DNA from: Methanobacteriota archaeon
Lineage (GTDB): Archaea > Thermoplasmatota > Poseidoniia > Poseidoniales > Poseidoniaceae
Reading direction: 5' to 3'
NCBI GenBank assembly: GCA_002722615.1
Contig: PBMQ01000036.1
Location: 3,207-67,206, forward strand
Length of the DNA: 64,000 nt
The notes under the pieces were generated by a model. That model was not told the origin of the DNA, did not search any database, and was given only the letters and a program-made list of their open reading frames with translations. The position numbers and the translations under genes were made by a program. Shown one piece after another: positions 1-26,976 of this stretch (its first letter is position 1; each line of letters starts with the position of its first letter).

Positions 1-1
1 C

Positions 2-487
2 CTACTTTTGCTATTGGTTGATGCTGGGGATGAAATTGATGAAATAGAACGGAAACTCCTCACATCGATTCGAGAGTTGACAGAACGTGCTCTTGATGCC
101 AATGAAACCTCAATTATGGAACGTATTCAACTCGTACTCACGAAAGCAGACACTGTTGAAAACGGATCGTTCGGCCCTATTGAGGCCATGATTTCAGAAT
201 ATGGTTTTTCCAACCCTCTGATTATTTCGTCCCATTCCGGAGAAGGTTTGAACGAATTACAGTCCGCCATATTGAGTACACTTTTCGGCCCGAAACGCAC
301 GCTTGTCATTCATGATGGGGGCGTTGAACAGATGGCTTCGCAAGCCATCCTCTCAAGAGTGTTTGATACCGTCTATGTTCACAATCATGAGCCTGTTCAA
401 AACGGAATAGAGGTTCGAATTAGTGCCTCTGATGAGACCGTTGCAATTCTTCGTTCGACCCACGGTGAACGCATTGAACTCAAGTAG
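2..487 (+). CDS. GTP-binding protein, HflX/Obg-like, C-terminal fragment (5' end outside window)
   Basis: Frame is open to the window edge. 'LLLVDAGD', then 'LTKAD' ((N/T)KxD G4 box) and 'SSHSGEG' (G5-like), followed by a small C-terminal domain. Stop at 485-487. Confidence 0.6.
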   Translation, partial: LLLLLVDAGDEIDEIERKLLTSIRELTERALDANETSIMERIQLVLTKADTVENGSFGPIEAMISEYGFSNPLIISSHSGEGLNELQSAILSTLFGPKRTLVIHDGGVEQMASQAILSRVFDTVYVHNHEPVQNGIEVRISASDETVAILRSTHGERIELK

Positions 488-21250: not shown

Positions 21251-24200
21251 TCACGCGTCGGCTTCATCACCGAGAACAGACATCAGTGACGACTGTTCAG
21301 CGATTCGATCCTTCACTGCAGCACGGCGGCCTCGGCCGACAAGATACAAGACACCGAAGAGCGAAAAGGTCAGCAAGACAATCATAGTTGGTAGTGCAAC
21401 TTTACCAGCAACTTCACCAGCAACATCCAAGAATGGGTTCGAGGAACCGAGCTCGGTTGAAATTCGGACGATATTGTCGCCTTCATTTGCCTCAACGATG
21501 GTGTTTCCTGGGTCGACAACGACGTAGACGTTCTTGCTACCTGCAGTAACTGGGTAAAGCATGTACAGTTCGATTACACGTTCTGTTTGAGAATCGTCTG
21601 GCTTGTCCAATGCACCAATGATTTGTCGCATGACAATACTTTCTTCATCACACATGTTGTTGTTCTTGCGAATTTCTTTCAACATGTCATCATCATCGTA
21701 CTCACAAAGAATGACTTCGATATCTGATGCGTGAACGTTTCCTGTGTTTGCAATCTCAATACGAATTGGGATTGATTCACCAACATCTGCTGAAGTGACA
21801 TCAGTTGAGGCTGATTTCACAACGAGATCTGGTGCACGTAGGTTGATGGTCACAATCTTCTCGTTTGAGTCCAACAGATCGCCGACCCATGACGCAGAAT
21901 CATCATGGTCGCCACCTTCCTCAGCGTTGCCCATCATCGAGACTACCTTGAGGCCAAGGCTTCGAGTGAGCAACTGTGCTCCTGGGTCAATCGATACGAC
22001 TGCAACCATGGTGTATGTTTGGTATGGGTCCATTTCCGGTAGCCTCCATTCATCAATGTCCGACAAGTACACGCAGCTGTCTTCTGGGTAGGATGCTGCT
22101 GTTGAGAGTGTTGTTACACAATCCTCCTCACTTTCGAGATCCAATCCAACTTGGCGAATCATTCGCCAATCGACATCCCAACCAGCAAGTGTCCCCATTC
22201 CAGGATCTTCGTTGACTGTAATGTCTGAGCCTGAACGGATGGATGTGTGATTGTCAAGGGTTGGAACGTCGGGAACGTTTCCTGCGTTTGTGATGTTGAC
22301 GATGAATCGTACAACACGGCCAGGTGCAGAAGTCTTGACATCGTTTTCTACAGTTGGGTCCATGGTGATTTGCATGTCATGGAATTCACGGACTGTTACT
22401 GTCAATGTTGTAATGTCCCGCAAGCGAGTCATACGTCCTGATGCGTCCTCATCCTTTTGTTCGGACTTGGTGTGGAAGACCACTGTGTAGTCACCAGCAG
22501 GGACTTGTTGTGGAATGCCCATGAGAACCTCAAAGGTTTGAGATGAGCCTGAATCGAGTTCTTCCAAGGTGTTACGAGGGATGGTAATGTCCCAAATGAC
22601 ATCGACTCCAGAGGAATCGGTTACACGTGCAAGAGTGTAATCGAAGCGATCTGGACCGTTTCCGTTGTTGCTAACTGTGGTTGGGAGAATGATGGCGTCA
22701 CCAGGATTGACGGTGAGCTGTTCATCATCTACGAGGGCGACATCGGTCTTGAGTTGGTAAACGTGATCAACGTCAACTTGCAGAATCTTGGCGGCTGAGA
22801 TCTTAGGATACCCTTTGAGATTTGCCTTGATTGTCACTGCCTTTCCGAGGCCCGCTGGGGCATCATCTGGCGCACAAATCTTAACCTTGACAACGTGCAT
22901 TCGATAATCATCGCCTGACATGAGAACCCACGGATAGGACACACCATCAGGGTTTAAGCTAAGTCCGTTCGGGAAGATTACTTCTGTAGTCCAATTGTCT
23001 TCATTTTCAGTTGTACCAGGGGTTGTAAAGACGAGGTCACCAGTATCGAAGTATTTCTCGACTTCAATTTCGAATACATGACAATTCGGATCCAATGCAT
23101 TCGGGGCATACGGAGCAGGCGTTACCATCGCTTCTTGGTCTGTAATGTTGAACACAATGTTGTTCGAAGAGCGGATTGAAACGAAAACTCCCAGTTCAAG
23201 AATATCGTATGTTCCTTTCTCGACAGACTTGACGGGTTCGCCTGCGGACCAACCCTTCAGCAAGATAACGAAGGCCCCTGGGTCTTCAGAGGTAGGGACA
23301 TTAATCTCAAGATTCTTGGTCACTGTTTGTTGTGGATCAAGTTGTACACTGAGCGGGAAGTTAACATCCCAAGCGAACGGCAGGAGCCACTCTTGACGGC
23401 CTTCTAAGGTCTGAGGATCCCAGAAGAGGAAGGTGTCAGCAACGTTTCCTGTATTGGTGATTGTGATCGAGAAAATCGCAGTTTGGCCCTGTTCAACGTC
23501 TGCTACACTGTGCGATGCATCAAGATCAATTCCGTGGACAACGTCCATCAGGGTGAGTGTTGTAATCTCGGAGCGGATTGCAGGGTCCTTGTAGGACTTA
23601 GCGTCCACTCGGATTTCAGCTAGCTCATCGGCGCCTGCTTGATAAATCGAAGGAGCCCGAACCCGGAGGTAGAATCGGATTGATTCTCCACCCTCAAGTG
23701 CGATTTCAGTATCTGGGAAAATTGCAGTATGATTATCTGCGAAGAACAGAGTTGCTGTCCAGTTGGTTGGAACGCCTGTAATGTTGAGTCCGTAACTGTC
23801 TGCCACCAAGTCCTTCGGACCCGGTGTTGAGTTATTCATTGTGAGATTGTATATGGTTTGTTCACCGGGTTCAATCACATGATAGAACGTCTCGCCATCA
23901 TCGAATTCAACATCGACTTGTCCAGTCAATACGTGAGAATAACAGACCGTAAATCGGTTGTTATTGGTCTCATCGTTACACTTGTTCGTATCCGACCAAG
24001 CCACGTGAGCGCCGCTACCCAAATCGTTCGAGAAGGCGGGCGGCATACCGATGCTTGGCTTGTACCCTGAATTCGGACCCAATTTGTTCGAGGACCAAGA
24101 GGTGATTGCAACCGTTTCCCATGGGTCAAGAGCTGTTAGTCCGTCGCCTTCGAGAGAAGTATGGTTCAAACGCACGTAAAGGAGTTCCTCACCTGCAGAG

Positions 24201-26260
24201 GTGTTTGCAGAATCGACCCAAGCAATGTGGATTTGGTTTTGATCGTCAGTAAGGAGTGAAGGGAAGACCGAGTTGCCGCCCCATGGAGCATTTGGTGGCA
24301 AGCCTGCGTTGGTCTCAACGTTTGAAATCGGAGTGTCGTTGATTTTCTTAATTGCGTAAGTCGAGAGTCCATCGTCGCGACCATCGAATTCACCAGCGCC
24401 TTGGAGGCGGAGTTTTGTGTAGTAAATTTCGTAGTTGACGTCCTTTTCAAATCCATAGTCTCTGCCGTCCATCCATGCAATGTGGGTGTTTCCTTCCATG
24501 TCAACACCGATAGATGGGTGGAATGAGTATGCATCATCGATTGTAACGCGTGTGTCGTTAACGACAACGAGGTGGCCATCGGCTCCTCTTCCAGTATCCT
24601 CAATGTAGGCGCCGTTCTGAGTGACGGTTCCTGAGACACCAGGTGTCCAACTTGGATCATTGTTCATCTTACCATATGGGTCAAGAACAGACATGTAAAT
24701 TTCTCGAGAATTGTTGGTTGAAATGTAAACCATTGCTTCGACGAGGAGGGCCATTTGGGCTGTATTAGCACCGCTTGATGGGAACTCATAGACTTGTCCG
24801 CCAGCATCGGTTGAACGTATGGTGTTACCAGGGCAGTTGCGCGCAGCCACACTCTGAACGCCATTCGGGCATTGTGAGAGATCTTTGAAGTGGGATTGAA
24901 CGTTAGTTGCACCACCATAAGTTTGTCCATACATGCCGACTGGGACGACGCCTGCAGTGACACAATTGTCGTGTGCTTCCTCAATGGAAGTAGTATCGTC
25001 AGCCTGTTGTGATGGGTCACCGTCTTTCGGACCTTCATCGGAAATAGGAATTACAATCTTGGTTGCATTTGGGTTCCACTTGTGATCGTCTTGTGTTGGT
25101 GGATTTCCGGGAATGTTACCATTAGAATCTTTCCATGATAGGCACGCCCAATTTGTACCTGGGCCCCAATCTTCTCCGGAGTACCCAGAGTATGTGTTTC
25201 CGTTGTAAACGGTTCCAGGAAGTTTTCGGATACCACCGGAGTCATCTCCGTCGACAATCCCTAGAGCTGTTGGCCGGGGGCCAGCGTTCTGGTTGTAGCT
25301 AGCGCAATTTCCGCTACTAGCCGCACCTGGCAAGGTGTTGCCAAGACCGTAAATGGTTTCGTACACGGTCATGTTTCCTTCCTCTAACAATGGCTTAATT
25401 CCTTGGAAGGAACCACTACCTGAAAAACTACCACCGTAAATGACAGTACAAACATCAGCCCATTCGGAGTACATCGATCCTGATGTATCGATGACGAAAA
25501 CAAGTTCAACCTTACCTCCACGCGTATCGTCCCATGCGATTTGGACCAAATCATTGGAGTCCACAACAATATCAGGGTGACCCTTGTGACCAATGATCGG
25601 AGTTAGAAGGGTATCTTCGAATAACGTGAGGACGGACCCGCCATTGAATTCTGGTTGAATCATGGTGTAGTAAATTTGGGGCTGGTTGAAGAACCGTTGA
25701 AGTTCATCATACGAATCCTGCCATGCGATGTGAAGGTTTCCTTGACTGTCAACGTCGATGGATGGCCAGTCACGGTCCTGAGCGCGCATCGAAATGATGG
25801 TGTCGTCAATGACTGAAATTGCGGTGTCCTCTGCAGCCATACCGTCGAGCGGAGCAAGGTACGGGTTGATGGACGTGTACATGATCTTGTGCTGGCCAGA
25901 TTTATCTGCCCAGACCAAGTGGATTCGGTCGTTGTCGTCAACGACCATATCTGGATGCCAGACCTTGTGAAGTCCGGGGTTTGTGATTTGGGTAGCGTCA
26001 ATAAGTGTTTCACCACGTGGCGAAATCATCGAGTAGTACAGGTGCTGCGTGTTTCTAGCCCATACGATGTGGACGTTACCTTCACTGTCCGATGCTACAG
26101 CCGCTTGACTGTCAGAGGCTGTTCCGCCGTCGACAACTCGCACTGCTTCAGTGATGACAACTTGAGATGCTTCCGCTTGTTCAGTTCCAAGAACCATTCC
26201 TGAAAATAAAGATAGCAGAAATAGACTGACGAGAGTTATCGATTTAGTTGTTTGACGCAT
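21251..26260 (-). CDS. giant cell-surface protein: signal peptide, 7-repeat propeller-like region with inserted vWA domain, multiple CARDB/Ig-like domains, C-terminal TM anchor
   Basis: Signal 'MRQTTKSITLVSLFLLSLFSGMVLG'. Seven 'h(I/V)(A/V)WxD' repeats. MIDAS 'VFVIDTSGSM' ... 'IVIPISDEGP'. CARDB-like 'ITNTGNVAD', 'ITNAGNVPD', 'IANTGNVHA', 'VSNNGNGPD'. C-terminal 'LPTMIVLLTFSLFGVLYLVGRGRR'. Confidence 0.8.
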   Translation of the reverse strand: MRQTTKSITLVSLFLLSLFSGMVLGTEQAEASQVVITEAVRVVDGGTASDSQAAVASDSEGNVHIVWARNTQHLYYSMISPRGETLIDATQITNPGLHKVWHPDMVVDDNDRIHLVWADKSGQHKIMYTSINPYLAPLDGMAAEDTAISVIDDTIISMRAQDRDWPSIDVDSQGNLHIAWQDSYDELQRFFNQPQIYYTMIQPEFNGGSVLTLFEDTLLTPIIGHKGHPDIVVDSNDLVQIAWDDTRGGKVELVFVIDTSGSMYSEWADVCTVIYGGSFSGSGSFQGIKPLLEEGNMTVYETIYGLGNTLPGAASSGNCASYNQNAGPRPTALGIVDGDDSGGIRKLPGTVYNGNTYSGYSGEDWGPGTNWACLSWKDSNGNIPGNPPTQDDHKWNPNATKIVIPISDEGPKDGDPSQQADDTTSIEEAHDNCVTAGVVPVGMYGQTYGGATNVQSHFKDLSQCPNGVQSVAARNCPGNTIRSTDAGGQVYEFPSSGANTAQMALLVEAMVYISTNNSREIYMSVLDPYGKMNNDPSWTPGVSGTVTQNGAYIEDTGRGADGHLVVVNDTRVTIDDAYSFHPSIGVDMEGNTHIAWMDGRDYGFEKDVNYEIYYTKLRLQGAGEFDGRDDGLSTYAIKKINDTPISNVETNAGLPPNAPWGGNSVFPSLLTDDQNQIHIAWVDSANTSAGEELLYVRLNHTSLEGDGLTALDPWETVAITSWSSNKLGPNSGYKPSIGMPPAFSNDLGSGAHVAWSDTNKCNDETNNNRFTVCYSHVLTGQVDVEFDDGETFYHVIEPGEQTIYNLTMNNSTPGPKDLVADSYGLNITGVPTNWTATLFFADNHTAIFPDTEIALEGGESIRFYLRVRAPSIYQAGADELAEIRVDAKSYKDPAIRSEITTLTLMDVVHGIDLDASHSVADVEQGQTAIFSITITNTGNVADTFLFWDPQTLEGRQEWLLPFAWDVNFPLSVQLDPQQTVTKNLEINVPTSEDPGAFVILLKGWSAGEPVKSVEKGTYDILELGVFVSIRSSNNIVFNITDQEAMVTPAPYAPNALDPNCHVFEIEVEKYFDTGDLVFTTPGTTENEDNWTTEVIFPNGLSLNPDGVSYPWVLMSGDDYRMHVVKVKICAPDDAPAGLGKAVTIKANLKGYPKISAAKILQVDVDHVYQLKTDVALVDDEQLTVNPGDAIILPTTVSNNGNGPDRFDYTLARVTDSSGVDVIWDITIPRNTLEELDSGSSQTFEVLMGIPQQVPAGDYTVVFHTKSEQKDEDASGRMTRLRDITTLTVTVREFHDMQITMDPTVENDVKTSAPGRVVRFIVNITNAGNVPDVPTLDNHTSIRSGSDITVNEDPGMGTLAGWDVDWRMIRQVGLDLESEEDCVTTLSTAASYPEDSCVYLSDIDEWRLPEMDPYQTYTMVAVVSIDPGAQLLTRSLGLKVVSMMGNAEEGGDHDDSASWVGDLLDSNEKIVTINLRAPDLVVKSASTDVTSADVGESIPIRIEIANTGNVHASDIEVILCEYDDDDMLKEIRKNNNMCDEESIVMRQIIGALDKPDDSQTERVIELYMLYPVTAGSKNVYVVVDPGNTIVEANEGDNIVRISTELGSSNPFLDVAGEVAGKVALPTMIVLLTFSLFGVLYLVGRGRRAAVKDRIAEQSSLMSVLGDEADA

Positions 26261-26349
26261 GGTACCACCTGTGTAACAAGAACGTGTATTCACCACTACT
26301 TAATCGCGACCCTTACGCGTCAGTTTCAAAACGCATCATGAAGCCGTTT

Positions 26350-26976
26350 TCAGGCCCATTCTTCAGGATCCAACCCCGTGCCAAATGGCATGGTATCATT
26401 GTACTCAATTTGGGCAGGTTCAGAAGGTTTGTTTTCAGTTTGATTCTGTTTCTTCTGGTTGGCCCAATCATCCACAGGGCCCGGCTCTCCCTTTCCAGGG
26501 CCATATGCGAATTTAATCTCATGAATCATACTCAATTTTGCAAGCCACAATCGACGGAGGCTGTGCATGAGGGCATTCTTGTTCAACCCATCAAACCAGA
26601 TTGGAAGGCTGACGTTGAACGCTTGAAGTGGCCCTGGCTTCTCCTTACCATCATGGCCCATGTGGATGCCCCAATCGAGTTCTGCACGCATCAGTGAAAG
26701 CCGACATTCGTGAACCCATTCAGACCATACCTCTGGTTCTTCATTCATGTGTTCTTTCATCTGGTCTTGTTGGCCCGAATCAACACGTGTCATACTGGAA
26801 ATAAAGACAAGGTCTCGCCCTTTGGGTAAAACGACTGCAAACATGTGTCCTTGGGGGCCTGGAGGGTAGCGAACCAGTAAGTGCGCATCAGCACGTGGGT
26901 CGTTTTTGTCACGAATTTCAAGTCGCTCACTGGCAAGCCATTGCCGGATTTGTTGTATCTGACCGGAATCGACCAT
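26350..26976 (-). CDS. hypothetical protein (N-terminal half possibly YbjN/DUF2299-like)
   Basis: 208-aa ORF with an ATG start and normal-looking composition. 'AHLLVRYPPGPQGHMFAVVLPKGRDLVFISSMTRV' weakly recalls YbjN-type sensor/chaperone-like folds. No firm family assignment. Confidence 0.45.
   Translation of the reverse strand: MVDSGQIQQIRQWLASERLEIRDKNDPRADAHLLVRYPPGPQGHMFAVVLPKGRDLVFISSMTRVDSGQQDQMKEHMNEEPEVWSEWVHECRLSLMRAELDWGIHMGHDGKEKPGPLQAFNVSLPIWFDGLNKNALMHSLRRLWLAKLSMIHEIKFAYGPGKGEPGPVDDWANQKKQNQTENKPSEPAQIEYNDTMPFGTGLDPEEWA

What the first reader, a model, noticed from the sequence alone, without database searches (positions are those of the whole stretch)
23927..26134. Seven-repeat propeller-like region interrupted by a vWA (MIDAS) domain: integrin-alpha-I-like topology in an archaeal surface giant
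Seen: in the 1669-aa surface protein the motif P(S/D)(I/M)xVDxxGNxH(I/V)(A/V)WxD, followed by a (I/L/V)(Y)Y strand, occurs seven times: NVHIVWAR, RIHLVWAD, NLHIAWQD, LVQIAWDD, then NTHIAWMD, QIHIAWVD, GAHVAWSD. A ~265-aa segment (nt ~24716-25510) lies between repeats 4 and 5. It begins 'VELVFVIDTSGSMYSEW' (DxSxS MIDAS) and contains 'IVIPISDEGP', which marks a vWA domain. Established: integrin alpha subunits with an I-domain have a vWA domain inserted in a loop of a 7-bladed beta-propeller. Inference: this is a convergent or distantly related propeller-with-inserted-vWA adhesin head, mounted on CARDB/Ig-like stalk domains and a C-terminal TM anchor. It would be a candidate cell-particle or cell-cell adhesion machine.
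Basis: partly seen in the sequence, partly recalled or inferred. Interest (0 to 1): 0.6.

Follow-up and report, generated by a model that had tools for sequence, protein, structure and literature searches.

The report
Archaeal propeller head with nested vWA
Nearly every Marine Group II (Poseidoniales) archaeon encodes one membrane-anchored 1,669-residue surface protein whose tip is a seven-bladed propeller with a metal-binding vWA adhesion domain nested inside one blade; this layout resembles an animal integrin head but was built from unrelated parts, and its ligand is unknown.

Summary
All seven HxxW-D/YY repeats and both vWA-like strings are at the stated positions in a 1,669-aa minus-strand gene (21251-26260).

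The repeats align as four-strand blades. A model of the head matches only beta-propellers, mostly seven-bladed ones (GH145, PL42, PL25, PLL lectins).

The 271-aa insert (aa 248-518) gives a confident model (pLDDT 87.9) that matches only vWA folds, with integrin beta-I domains first. By sequence it stays below Pfam's VWA threshold.

D258, S260, S262, E363 and D408 are intact in 29 sequences. They are replaced together in four paralogs. That pattern fits a beta-I-type metal site (MIDAS).

- The insert sits inside blade 4, in the B-C loop, not between blades 2 and 3.
- The propeller is BNR/SBBP-like, not FG-GAP.

The resemblance is therefore convergent.

The gene is a syntenic, mostly single-copy core gene in 199 of 201 Poseidoniales genomes. 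The vWA insert is its most conserved part, and the short cytoplasmic tail keeps a motif.

My best reading is a metal-dependent ligand-binding receptor or adhesin. I found no description of it in the literature. Function, ligand and expression are untested.

The parts
21251..26260 (-). Whole gene: 1,669-aa type-I membrane surface protein. An in-frame GTG at 26296 would add 12 aa.
   Evidence: ORF list and translation. Orthologs are present in 199 of 201 genomes of the order.
26168..26260 (-). Signal peptide, aa 1-31 (MRQTTKSITLVSLFLLSLFSGMVLGTEQAEA).
   Evidence: Hydrophobic peak at aa 6-26 and the n/h/c layout, read directly from the sequence.
26129..26167 (-). N-terminal strand, aa 32-44 (SQVVITEAVRVVD). 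It is a candidate 'velcro' strand completing blade 7. This is an inference.
   Evidence: It resembles the D-strand pattern of the other blades. V, T and A are invariant or nearly so in orthologs. Model 1 places short strands here.
25520..26128 (-). Propeller blades 1-3 plus strands A and B of blade 4 (aa 45-247).
   Evidence: Model 1 has pLDDT 88-95 here with groups of four strands. Blade alignment. Propeller-only fold hits.
24707..25519 (-). Nested vWA-fold domain (aa 248-518), inserted in the B-C loop of blade 4.
   Evidence: Model 2 has pLDDT 87.9 and pTM 0.89. Foldseek hits are all vWA folds: integrin beta-I, BatB, alpha-M I domain, vWF-A1. It is the most conserved segment of the protein.
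25475..25489 (-). D258-T-S260-G-S262, the MIDAS-type D-x-S-x-S motif after strand beta-1.
   Evidence: Invariant in 21 orthologs. Lost together with E363 and D408 in four paralogs.
25172..25174 (-). E363, the candidate fourth metal ligand (position equivalent to integrin beta3 Glu220). It precedes the invariant WGPG..WAC.SW helix.
   Evidence: Co-varies with the D-x-S-x-S motif. Spacing resembles beta3 (105 against 101 residues). The Glu220 role is from PMC3792891.
25037..25042 (-). S407-D408 at the end of strand beta-4 ('IVIPISDEGP'), the candidate fifth metal ligand (equivalent to the TDG/Asp251 position).
   Evidence: Invariant in orthologs. Replaced by G-Y, G-V, G-R or G-E in paralogs that lack the MIDAS motif.
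23891..24706 (-). Strands C and D of blade 4 plus blades 5-7 (aa 519-790).
   Evidence: Blade alignment. Strand groups in model 1, with lower confidence in the long loops.
21416..23890 (-). Stalk of Ig-like modules (aa 791-1615). It includes choice-of-anchor-T (aa 1108-1274) and CARDB (aa 1476-1597, nt 21470-21835).
   Evidence: Pfam CARDB 37.3 bits against a 22.7 cutoff. NCBIfam choice_anch_T 76.2 bits against 70.
21335..21400 (-). Single transmembrane helix, aa 1621-1642.
   Evidence: Hydropathy peak at 1617-1644, followed by GRGRR.
21254..21334 (-). Cytoplasmic tail, aa 1643-1669, with the conserved motif R-x-AEQSSLxSVL.
   Evidence: The motif is kept across both families of the order.
26350..26976 (-). 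DUF2299 gene immediately upstream on the same strand. It is a conserved neighbour whose functional link is unknown.
   Evidence: Pfam DUF2299. The same neighbour is present in two other lineages.

Best explanation
The gene encodes a type-I membrane surface protein: signal peptide, distal head, stalk of about 825 aa made of Ig-like/CARDB modules, one TM helix and a cytoplasmic tail of about 27 aa.

The head is a single closed beta-propeller of seven four-stranded blades. The blades belong to the BNR/SBBP-like (sialidase-clan) repeat type. In the Poseidoniales lineage a vWA module became nested in the B-C loop of blade 4. The same vWA subtype exists as a free-standing module in other Thermoplasmatota surface proteins. 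The B-C loop opens on the same face of a propeller as the D-A loops, so the vWA should sit on that face.

The vWA keeps a beta-I-type metal-ion-dependent adhesion site (D258, S260, S262, E363, D408). Most likely a bound divalent cation completes its coordination with an acidic group of an external ligand, with the propeller surface contributing to recognition.

The head, and the vWA above all, is the most conserved part of the protein. The gene is a syntenic, mostly single-copy core gene of the order. The ligand is therefore probably something invariant, such as a common algal or particle polymer or a component of the cell's own envelope, rather than a variable target. The conserved tail motif suggests a cytoplasmic partner.

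Shown here: the repeats, the fold classes, the insertion point, residue covariation, the distribution and the synteny. Inferred: ring closure, metal binding, ligand binding, and any signalling.
For: - Repeats and motifs are at the stated sites.
- The blades align in register, with blade 4 split as A,B | insert | C,D.
- The head model (pLDDT 70.7, pTM 0.71) shows seven groups of about four strands around an alpha/beta insert.
- Foldseek hits for the head are only propellers. Alignments crossing the insert reach target TM 0.62 (4irt), 0.55 (PL42 7esn) and 0.51 (PL25 5uas). GH145, PL42, PL24 and PL25 are seven-bladed and PL42 is a BNR_4 member (PMC8377490). PLL lectins are seven-bladed (PMC6943638).
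- Repeat-only relatives of the head score above threshold for BNR_4, BNR_2 and SBBP.
- The insert model has pLDDT 87.9 and pTM 0.89. Its top 50 PDB hits are essentially all vWA folds with probability 0.9-1.0, integrin beta-I first, and target TM about 0.5 on stand-alone vWA domains.
- D/S/S/E/S-D are intact in 29 sequences and lost jointly in four paralogs.
- Compact stand-alone homologs exist outside the order (hhalign 99.7%, E 1.6e-25). One scores 23.2 bits against a 23.8 cutoff on Pfam VWA.
- Orthologs are present in 199 of 201 genomes of the order. The insert domain is absent from 10 of 10 genomes of the sister family.
- In a cross-family ortholog the vWA segment is 61% identical, against 37-40% for the membrane-proximal stalk.
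- Synteny is conserved, and the tail motif is conserved.
Against: - No sequence method puts the insert above a vWA threshold. Pfam gives 14.7 bits, covering only the 19-residue beta-1/MIDAS stretch. A profile search of PDB sequences found nothing.
- Foldseek TM-scores for the insert are modest (query TM about 0.4) and rmsd is 9-12 A.
- The head model is only moderately confident, and the C-terminal blades have long loops below pLDDT 50.
I could measure neither ring closure, nor how the vWA docks on the propeller, nor the geometry of the five candidate metal ligands.
- The most invariant motifs of the insert (WGPG..WAC.SW, NPPT, DHxWN, EAHDxC, six Cys) also survive in paralogs that lack the MIDAS motif. 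Part of the constraint is therefore unrelated to metal binding.
- There are no expression, localisation or binding data.
Confidence: 0.62

Rival explanations
1. The protein is a structural envelope protein, an S-layer-like or main surface-coat protein of Marine Group II cells. The propeller-vWA head would make lattice or cell-envelope contacts, with the metal site bridging neighbouring subunits or glycans. It would not capture external ligands.
For: - It is near-universal, mostly single-copy and syntenic within a housekeeping region.
- The head is strongly conserved, which suits a self or endogenous partner.
- It has a C-terminal TM anchor and 17 N-glycosylation sequons.
- The ectodomain is acidic: 232 D+E against 94 K+R.
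- No S-layer protein of this uncultured order was mentioned in the genomic survey I read (PMC6461757).
Against:
- S-layer proteins usually diverge fast, whereas this head is 57-61% identical between families.
- Thalassarchaeaceae genomes carry 2-5 diversified paralogs with other tails and with lost metal sites. That pattern looks more like a receptor family than a lattice protein.
- A conserved cytoplasmic tail motif is not needed for a passive coat.
Confidence: 0.2
2. The protein is a cell-surface carbohydrate-active enzyme. The seven-bladed propeller would be a lyase or hydrolase of the GH145/PL42/PL24/PL25 type acting on algal uronic-acid polysaccharides, and the vWA would be an accessory binding module.
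For: - The best fold matches of the head are GH145, PL42 and PL25 enzymes and sialidases.
- PL24 and PL25 are ulvan lyases, and these families share the BNR_4-like seven-bladed fold (PMC8377490).
- Marine Group II archaea are heterotrophs associated with phytoplankton-derived matter (abstract of PMC8821943).
Against: - Sequence identity to these enzymes is 6-13%.
- The protein itself has no BNR_4 hit at E<1.
- The conserved residues in the blades are the repeated, hence probably structural, motif residues.
- Lectins of the same fold match equally well.
- The catalytic His/Arg/Tyr constellation could not be checked without coordinates.
Confidence: 0.1
3. The insert has a vWA-like fold but is not a working metal-dependent adhesion domain. 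It would be a rigid, disulfide-stabilised decoration of the propeller, and the D-x-S-x-S motif would be a structural relic.
For: - Sequence scores against VWA are below threshold.
- Six invariant cysteines and several invariant motifs unrelated to the metal site persist in paralogs that lack the MIDAS motif.
- Those paralogs show that the domain can persist without the site.
Against: - All five candidate ligands are invariant over 57-100% identity in the main ortholog line and in several paralog lines.
- They are lost together rather than piecemeal in four paralogs, as expected for one functional unit.
- Distant stand-alone relatives keep DTSGSM, ESWG and IPISDE.
Confidence: 0.08

Closest known systems
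Integrin alpha subunits with an inserted alpha-I domain (alpha-M, alpha-L, alpha-1, alpha-2 and others)
   Same: Both have a seven-bladed propeller head with a vWA domain nested in a loop of the propeller. Both are carried on a stalk of beta-sandwich domains, with one TM helix and a short cytoplasmic tail. Alpha-I domains are among the structural matches of the insert (1mf7, target TM 0.52).
   Different: The propeller has no FG-GAP repeats and is BNR/SBBP-like. The insertion lies inside blade 4 (B-C loop), not between repeats 2 and 3 (PMC4237329). The candidate fourth metal ligand is Glu, not Thr. No partner beta chain is known. Alpha-I domains arose in chordates (PMC4237329), so the resemblance is convergent.
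Integrin beta-I (beta-A) domains
   Same: These are the top structural matches of the insert (8vs6_B, E 1.7e-4, probability 1.0). The metal-site residue set is of the D/S/S/E/D type with similar spacing. Both carry large loop insertions relative to compact vWA domains. In integrins this domain sits against a propeller face.
   Different: In integrins the beta-I domain is nested in a hybrid domain of a separate chain and docks non-covalently on the alpha-chain propeller. Here it is covalently nested in the propeller. I could not assess ADMIDAS or SyMBS sites. Sequence identity is 9-13%.
GH145 / PL42 / PL24 / PL25 seven-bladed propeller enzymes and PLL-type propeller lectins (Pfam BNR_4 and relatives)
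   Same: These are the best fold matches of the head, including alignments that run across the insert. Repeat-sharing relatives of the head score above threshold for BNR_4, BNR_2 and SBBP.
   Different: This protein has no above-threshold family hit. It has no canonical SxDxGxTW Asp-box. None of those proteins has a nested vWA. Catalytic residues were not assessable.
Bacterial vWA adhesins: PilY1 (vWA plus propeller in tandem), pilus-tip adhesins with a vWA nested in an Ig-like domain (RrgA/GBS104 type), BatA/BatB
   Same: These are prokaryotic surface proteins that use a MIDAS-type vWA for adhesion. BatB is a structural match (3ibs, target TM 0.51).
   Different: In PilY1 the two domains are in tandem, not nested. 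In the pilus adhesins the host domain is an Ig-like fold. This comparison rests on my own knowledge of those proteins, not on a test here.

Membership tests
vWA domain (Pfam PF00092 / vWA-like clan) | Sequence match above the curated Pfam threshold | tested here: not met
   VWA scores 14.7 bits against a 23.8 cutoff, covering only aa 6-24 of the insert. Seven of 36 family members reach E<=10, the best at E 0.0041. The compact relative scores 23.2 bits. A profile search of PDB sequences found no vWA.
vWA domain (Pfam PF00092 / vWA-like clan) | Rossmann-like alpha/beta fold: a central sheet of about six strands flanked by helices | tested here: met
   Model 2 has pLDDT 87.9 and pTM 0.89, with a beta-alpha order consistent with vWA. 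Foldseek hits are vWA folds only, with probability 0.9-1.0. TM is about 0.4 on the query and about 0.5 on stand-alone vWA targets.
vWA domain (Pfam PF00092 / vWA-like clan) | MIDAS: D-x-S-x-S after beta-1, a Thr or Glu about 50-100 residues later, and an Asp after beta-4, all converging on one metal | tested here: inconclusive
   D258-x-S260-x-S262, E363 and D408 are present, invariant in orthologs and lost jointly in four paralogs. Their convergence in 3D and metal binding could not be measured because no coordinates were available.
Integrin alpha subunit with I domain | Propeller built of FG-GAP repeats | tested here: not met
   No FG-GAP family appears at E<1 in the Pfam scan. The repeats link to BNR_4, BNR_2 and SBBP proteins.
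Integrin alpha subunit with I domain | vWA inserted between propeller repeats 2 and 3 | tested here: not met
   The insert lies between strands B and C of blade 4. The integrin position is from PMC4237329.
Integrin alpha subunit with I domain | Non-covalent heterodimer with a beta subunit | not testable with these tools
   No candidate partner was identified. The neighbours are DUF2299 and an ArsR-type regulator.
BNR_4 / sialidase-clan beta-propeller | Pfam match above threshold | tested here: not met
   P0001 has no hit at E<1. Paralogs P0135 and P0140 score 17-20 bits against a 27.3 cutoff. Repeat-only relatives score 50-84 bits.
BNR_4 / sialidase-clan beta-propeller | Six- or seven-bladed propeller fold similar to family members | tested here: met
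   Foldseek probability is 1.0 to GH145, PL42, PL25 and sialidases. Target TM is 0.51-0.62 for alignments spanning the insert.
BNR_4 / sialidase-clan beta-propeller | Asp-box SxDxGxTW in blades | tested here: not met
   The blade motif is hPDIxVDxxGNxHIAWxD. The Trp lies six residues after the Gly and the motif spans the A-B hairpin, so it is not a canonical Asp-box.
CARDB (PF07705) | Pfam match above threshold | tested here: met
   37.3 bits against a 22.7 cutoff at aa 1476-1597.
NCBIfam 'PDIAV motif-containing lipoprotein' (NF053835) | Match above the curated cutoff | tested here: not met
   53.2 bits against a 90 cutoff, covering aa 41-130 only. The two share the repeat type but this protein is not in that family.

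The most novel reading that the evidence does not exclude
Poseidoniales carry an independently evolved, single-chain counterpart of an integrin. It would be an order-wide transmembrane receptor whose propeller-plus-vWA head binds an external ligand through a beta-I-type metal site. Its conserved short cytoplasmic tail (R-x-AEQSSLxSVL) would couple that binding to an intracellular partner, linking particle or cell contact to cell behaviour in the most abundant planktonic archaea of the surface ocean.
Probability: 0.12. Interest if true: 0.85.

Novelty: new variant of a known kind. Interest (0 to 1): 0.58.

Why it matters
Marine Group II archaea are among the most abundant microbes of the surface ocean and have never been cultured. 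How they attach to particles, algae or each other is known only from gene inventories (archaella, thrombospondin-like genes, flotillin; PMC6461757).

This protein is a near-universal, strongly conserved surface gene with a recognisable ligand-binding head, so it gives attachment studies a concrete target. The head can be expressed, its metal site mutated, and its ligand sought.

It is also a clean case of convergent domain architecture. A vWA nested in a seven-bladed propeller on a stalk with a TM anchor arose here from non-integrin parts and at a different insertion point. The paralogs that have lost the metal site are natural controls.

Tried and rejected
- Pfam, NCBIfam and PDB sequence searches with the whole protein gave no vWA, FG-GAP or BNR hit.
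- A profile of the insert against PDB sequences gave only a chance hit, to peptidase B.
- The compact relative against PDB sequences gave nothing.
- The first homolog search returned only relatives at 79% identity or more, too shallow for modelling. I obtained diversity from related genomes and the representative library instead.
- Model coordinates are not exposed, so I could not measure ring closure, vWA docking or metal-site geometry.
- Gene neighbourhood gave no functional clue beyond a conserved DUF2299 neighbour.
- Literature searches found no description of this protein.
- I considered and rejected that the D-x-S-x-S motif is a chance match. It is invariant, co-varies with two distant positions, and sits on a vWA fold.
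- I rejected true integrin homology, because the FG-GAP and insertion-site criteria are not met.
- The second copies in Thalassarchaeaceae are not uniformly MIDAS-less. Of four examined, two keep the site, one has lost it and one is partly degenerate.
Full report
**Observation.** The finding lies in one minus-strand ORF, 21251..26296. The seven strings NVHIVWAR, RIHLVWAD, NLHIAWQD, LVQIAWDD, NTHIAWMD, QIHIAWVD and GAHVAWSD are at aa 62, 112, 175, 238, 591, 676 and 750. The pattern [HQ][ILV][AV]W occurs nowhere else in the protein. 'VELVFVIDTSGSMYSEW' starts at aa 251 and 'IVIPISDEGP' at aa 402.

**Organism and distribution.** Close homologs are named Candidatus Poseidoniales, Poseidoniaceae or Poseidonia sp., that is, Marine Group II archaea.
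- A six-frame search of 201 genomes of the order found the head in 199, in 24 of 24 genera. Open frames are about 1,670-1,760 aa and head identity is 57-100%. Most genomes of the window's own family have one copy, and the other large family has 1-5.
- The insert domain was found in none of 10 genomes of the sister family in the same class. Elsewhere in the phylum it appears only as weak partial matches.
- Synteny is kept in both families: DUF2299, this gene, a convergent ArsR-type HTH gene, a TM protein, topoisomerase VI A/B, aconitase, TFB.

This is therefore a vertically inherited core gene, not an island gene.

**The repeats are propeller blades.**
- Cut at the repeat boundaries, the seven units align in register over four elements: A 'hPDIxVD', B 'xHIAWxD', C 'xIYYxxI', D 'hxxDTxIS'.
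- An alignment-based AlphaFold2 model of aa 30-800 (21 orthologs, A1) reached pLDDT 70.7 and pTM 0.71. Blades 1-3 scored 88-95 and several long loops in blades 5-7 were weak. Its secondary structure shows seven groups of about four strands.
- Foldseek against the PDB returned only beta-propellers: GH145 (5muk), sialidases (NanB), 4irt, PL42 FoRham1 (7esn), PL25 (5uas) and Photorhabdus PLL lectins. Alignments of 765-802 columns, which run across the insert, give target TM of 0.62, 0.55 and 0.51.
- GH145, PL42, PL24 and PL25 are seven-bladed, and FoRham1 is a Pfam BNR_4 member (PMC8377490). PLL lectins are seven-bladed (PMC6943638).
- An exhaustive search of 1.84 billion representatives gave 1,382 hits. 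Many are repeat-only proteins with 5-11 matched stretches, and these score above threshold for BNR_4, BNR_2 and SBBP.
- The protein itself has no such hit at E<1 and no FG-GAP hit. NCBIfam's 'PDIAV motif-containing lipoprotein' matches below its cutoff (53 bits against 90).
- Ring closure, with the N-terminal strand 'VVITEAVRV' as the missing fourth strand of blade 7, is an inference.

**Where the insert sits.** Blade 4 has its A and B strands ('HPDIVVD', 'LVQIAWDD') before the insert. Its C and D strands ('REIYMSVLDP', 'HLVVVNDTRVT') come after it. The insert (aa 248-518, nt 24707-25519) is therefore in the B-C loop inside blade 4, not between two blades. In integrin alpha chains the I domain buds out between repeats 2 and 3 (PMC4237329). 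From general knowledge of propellers, B-C and D-A loops open on the same face, so the spatial result may be similar. I could not verify this.

**The insert is a vWA fold.**
- By sequence the case is weak. Pfam VWA scores 14.7 bits against a 23.8 cutoff, on the first 19 residues only. A profile search of PDB sequences found nothing relevant.
- I built a more diverse alignment (A2, 36 sequences down to 34% identity). The resulting model is confident, with pLDDT 87.9 and pTM 0.89.
- Its PDB matches are vWA domains throughout: integrin beta-I domains first (8vs6_B, E 1.7e-4, probability 1.0), then BatB (3ibs, target TM 0.51), the alpha-M I domain (1mf7, 0.52) and vWF-A1 (4c2a, 0.51). TM-scores are modest because the domain carries large extra loops.
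- Compact stand-alone relatives of the same subtype (about 170 aa, 'VDTSGSMY.EW', 'ESWG', 'IPISDEC', 'DEA') occur between Ig-like modules in surface proteins of other families of the phylum.
- hhalign links one of them to the insert at 99.7% probability, E 1.6e-25. That alignment shows three lineage-specific elaborations in the Poseidoniales version. The compact form scores 23.2 bits on Pfam VWA, just under the cutoff.

**The metal site.** D258, S260 and S262 (D-x-S-x-S), E363 (before the invariant WGPG helix) and S407-D408 (end of beta-4) are intact in all 21 orthologs and in 8 paralog representatives.
- In four paralogs with D258 replaced by Pro, E363 is also replaced (K, D, R, L), and S-D becomes G-Y, G-V, G-R or G-E. 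Two further paralogs are partly degenerate.
- Joint loss marks these residues as one functional unit.
- A D/S/S/E/D set with spacings of 105 and 45 residues resembles integrin beta3, where Ser121 and Ser123 lie in the beta1-alpha1 loop, Glu220 is shared by MIDAS and SyMBS, and Asp251 contacts the MIDAS ion (PMC3792891). The position of Asp119 is from my own knowledge.
- Other invariant features persist in the MIDAS-less paralogs too: E301-T302, WGPG..WAC.SW, NPPT, DHxWN, EAHDxC and six cysteines. Not all of the constraint is about the metal.

**Rest of the protein.**
- The N-terminus is a signal peptide.
- aa 791-1615 are Ig-like modules (choice-of-anchor-T 76 bits, CARDB 37 bits, NPCBM_assoc).
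- aa 1621-1642 form the only other hydrophobic segment, followed by GRGRR and a 27-aa tail.
- The tail keeps R-x-AE(Q/K)SS(L/M)xS(V/N)L across both families.
- Segment-wise identity to a cross-family ortholog is 56% (propeller N-half), 61% (vWA), 57% (propeller C-half), 56% (first stalk third), then 37-40% for the membrane-proximal stalk and the TM helix plus tail. The vWA is the most conserved part in all four comparisons.

**Interpretation.** The architecture is a seven-bladed non-FG-GAP propeller with a beta-I-like vWA nested in blade 4, on an Ig-like stalk with a TM anchor and a conserved tail.
- It works like an integrin head in layout but fails two defining tests for integrin alpha membership (repeat type and insertion site). 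It is best called convergent.
- The most likely mechanism is metal-dependent binding of an acidic group on a conserved ligand, with the propeller contributing. This is inference.
- Rivals are an envelope or S-layer-like structural role, a surface carbohydrate-active enzyme, and a metal-independent structural insert.

**Novelty.**
- Two literature searches for Poseidoniales or MGII with vWA or adhesion terms, and one for integrin-like archaeal propeller/vWA proteins, found no description.
- Public annotations read 'CARDB domain-containing protein', 'uncharacterized membrane protein' or 'hypothetical protein'.
- Earlier notes of this scan on orthologs in other genomes reached the same general reading. 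They are not independent evidence.
  1. The intra-blade insertion point.
  2. The beta-I-type site and its joint loss in paralogs.
  3. The stand-alone relatives of the vWA subtype.
  4. The conservation gradient along the protein.
  5. The conserved synteny.
  6. The conserved tail motif.

Noticed in passing
window 21254-21334 (-), aa 1643-1669; paralog tails in P0134, P0137, P0140, P0124, P0125, P0127: The short cytoplasmic tail keeps R-x-AEQSSLxSVL across both families of the order. MIDAS-less paralogs have long tails ending in 'IGDLIDDLL'. Paralogs with thrombospondin-type-3-like repeats end in a W..YYR..W..W module. This suggests different intracellular partners for each paralog class.
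   Followed up: partly
P0132; L063 and L064: One paralog class in Thalassarchaeaceae carries a further domain of about 270 aa nested near the C-terminal end of the vWA, which is itself nested in the propeller. That makes three levels of domain nesting. The extra domain was not identified.
   Followed up: no
L060:21-2300 (+) and L062:21-5918 (+): Compact stand-alone copies of the same vWA subtype (DTSGSMY.EW / ESWG / IPISDEC) sit between Ig-like, PKD and Y_Y_Y modules in surface proteins of other Thermoplasmatota families. One of these proteins is a giant of more than 1,966 aa.
   Followed up: partly
P0124, P0125, P0127, P0131, P0132: Paralogs with the same propeller-vWA head replace the CARDB stalk with long arrays of DxDxDG (thrombospondin type-3-like) calcium-binding repeats. 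These are probably the 'thrombospondin' genes counted in MGII genome surveys (PMC6461757).
   Followed up: no
window 26350-26976 (-): A DUF2299 gene lies directly upstream on the same strand. It keeps that position in a different genus and in the other family. Whether it is linked functionally to the surface protein is unknown.
   Followed up: partly
window 25520-26167 (-), aa 32-247: There is no N-x-S/T sequon in blades 1-4a, against 11-15 per 1,000 aa in the vWA, the C-terminal blades and the stalk. This could mark a glycan-free interaction surface. I checked this sequence only.
   Followed up: no
window 26261-26296 (-): An in-frame GTG 12 codons upstream of the ATG would give a 1,681-aa product. 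The clustered database entry identical to this protein is 1,669 aa, which favours the ATG.
   Followed up: partly
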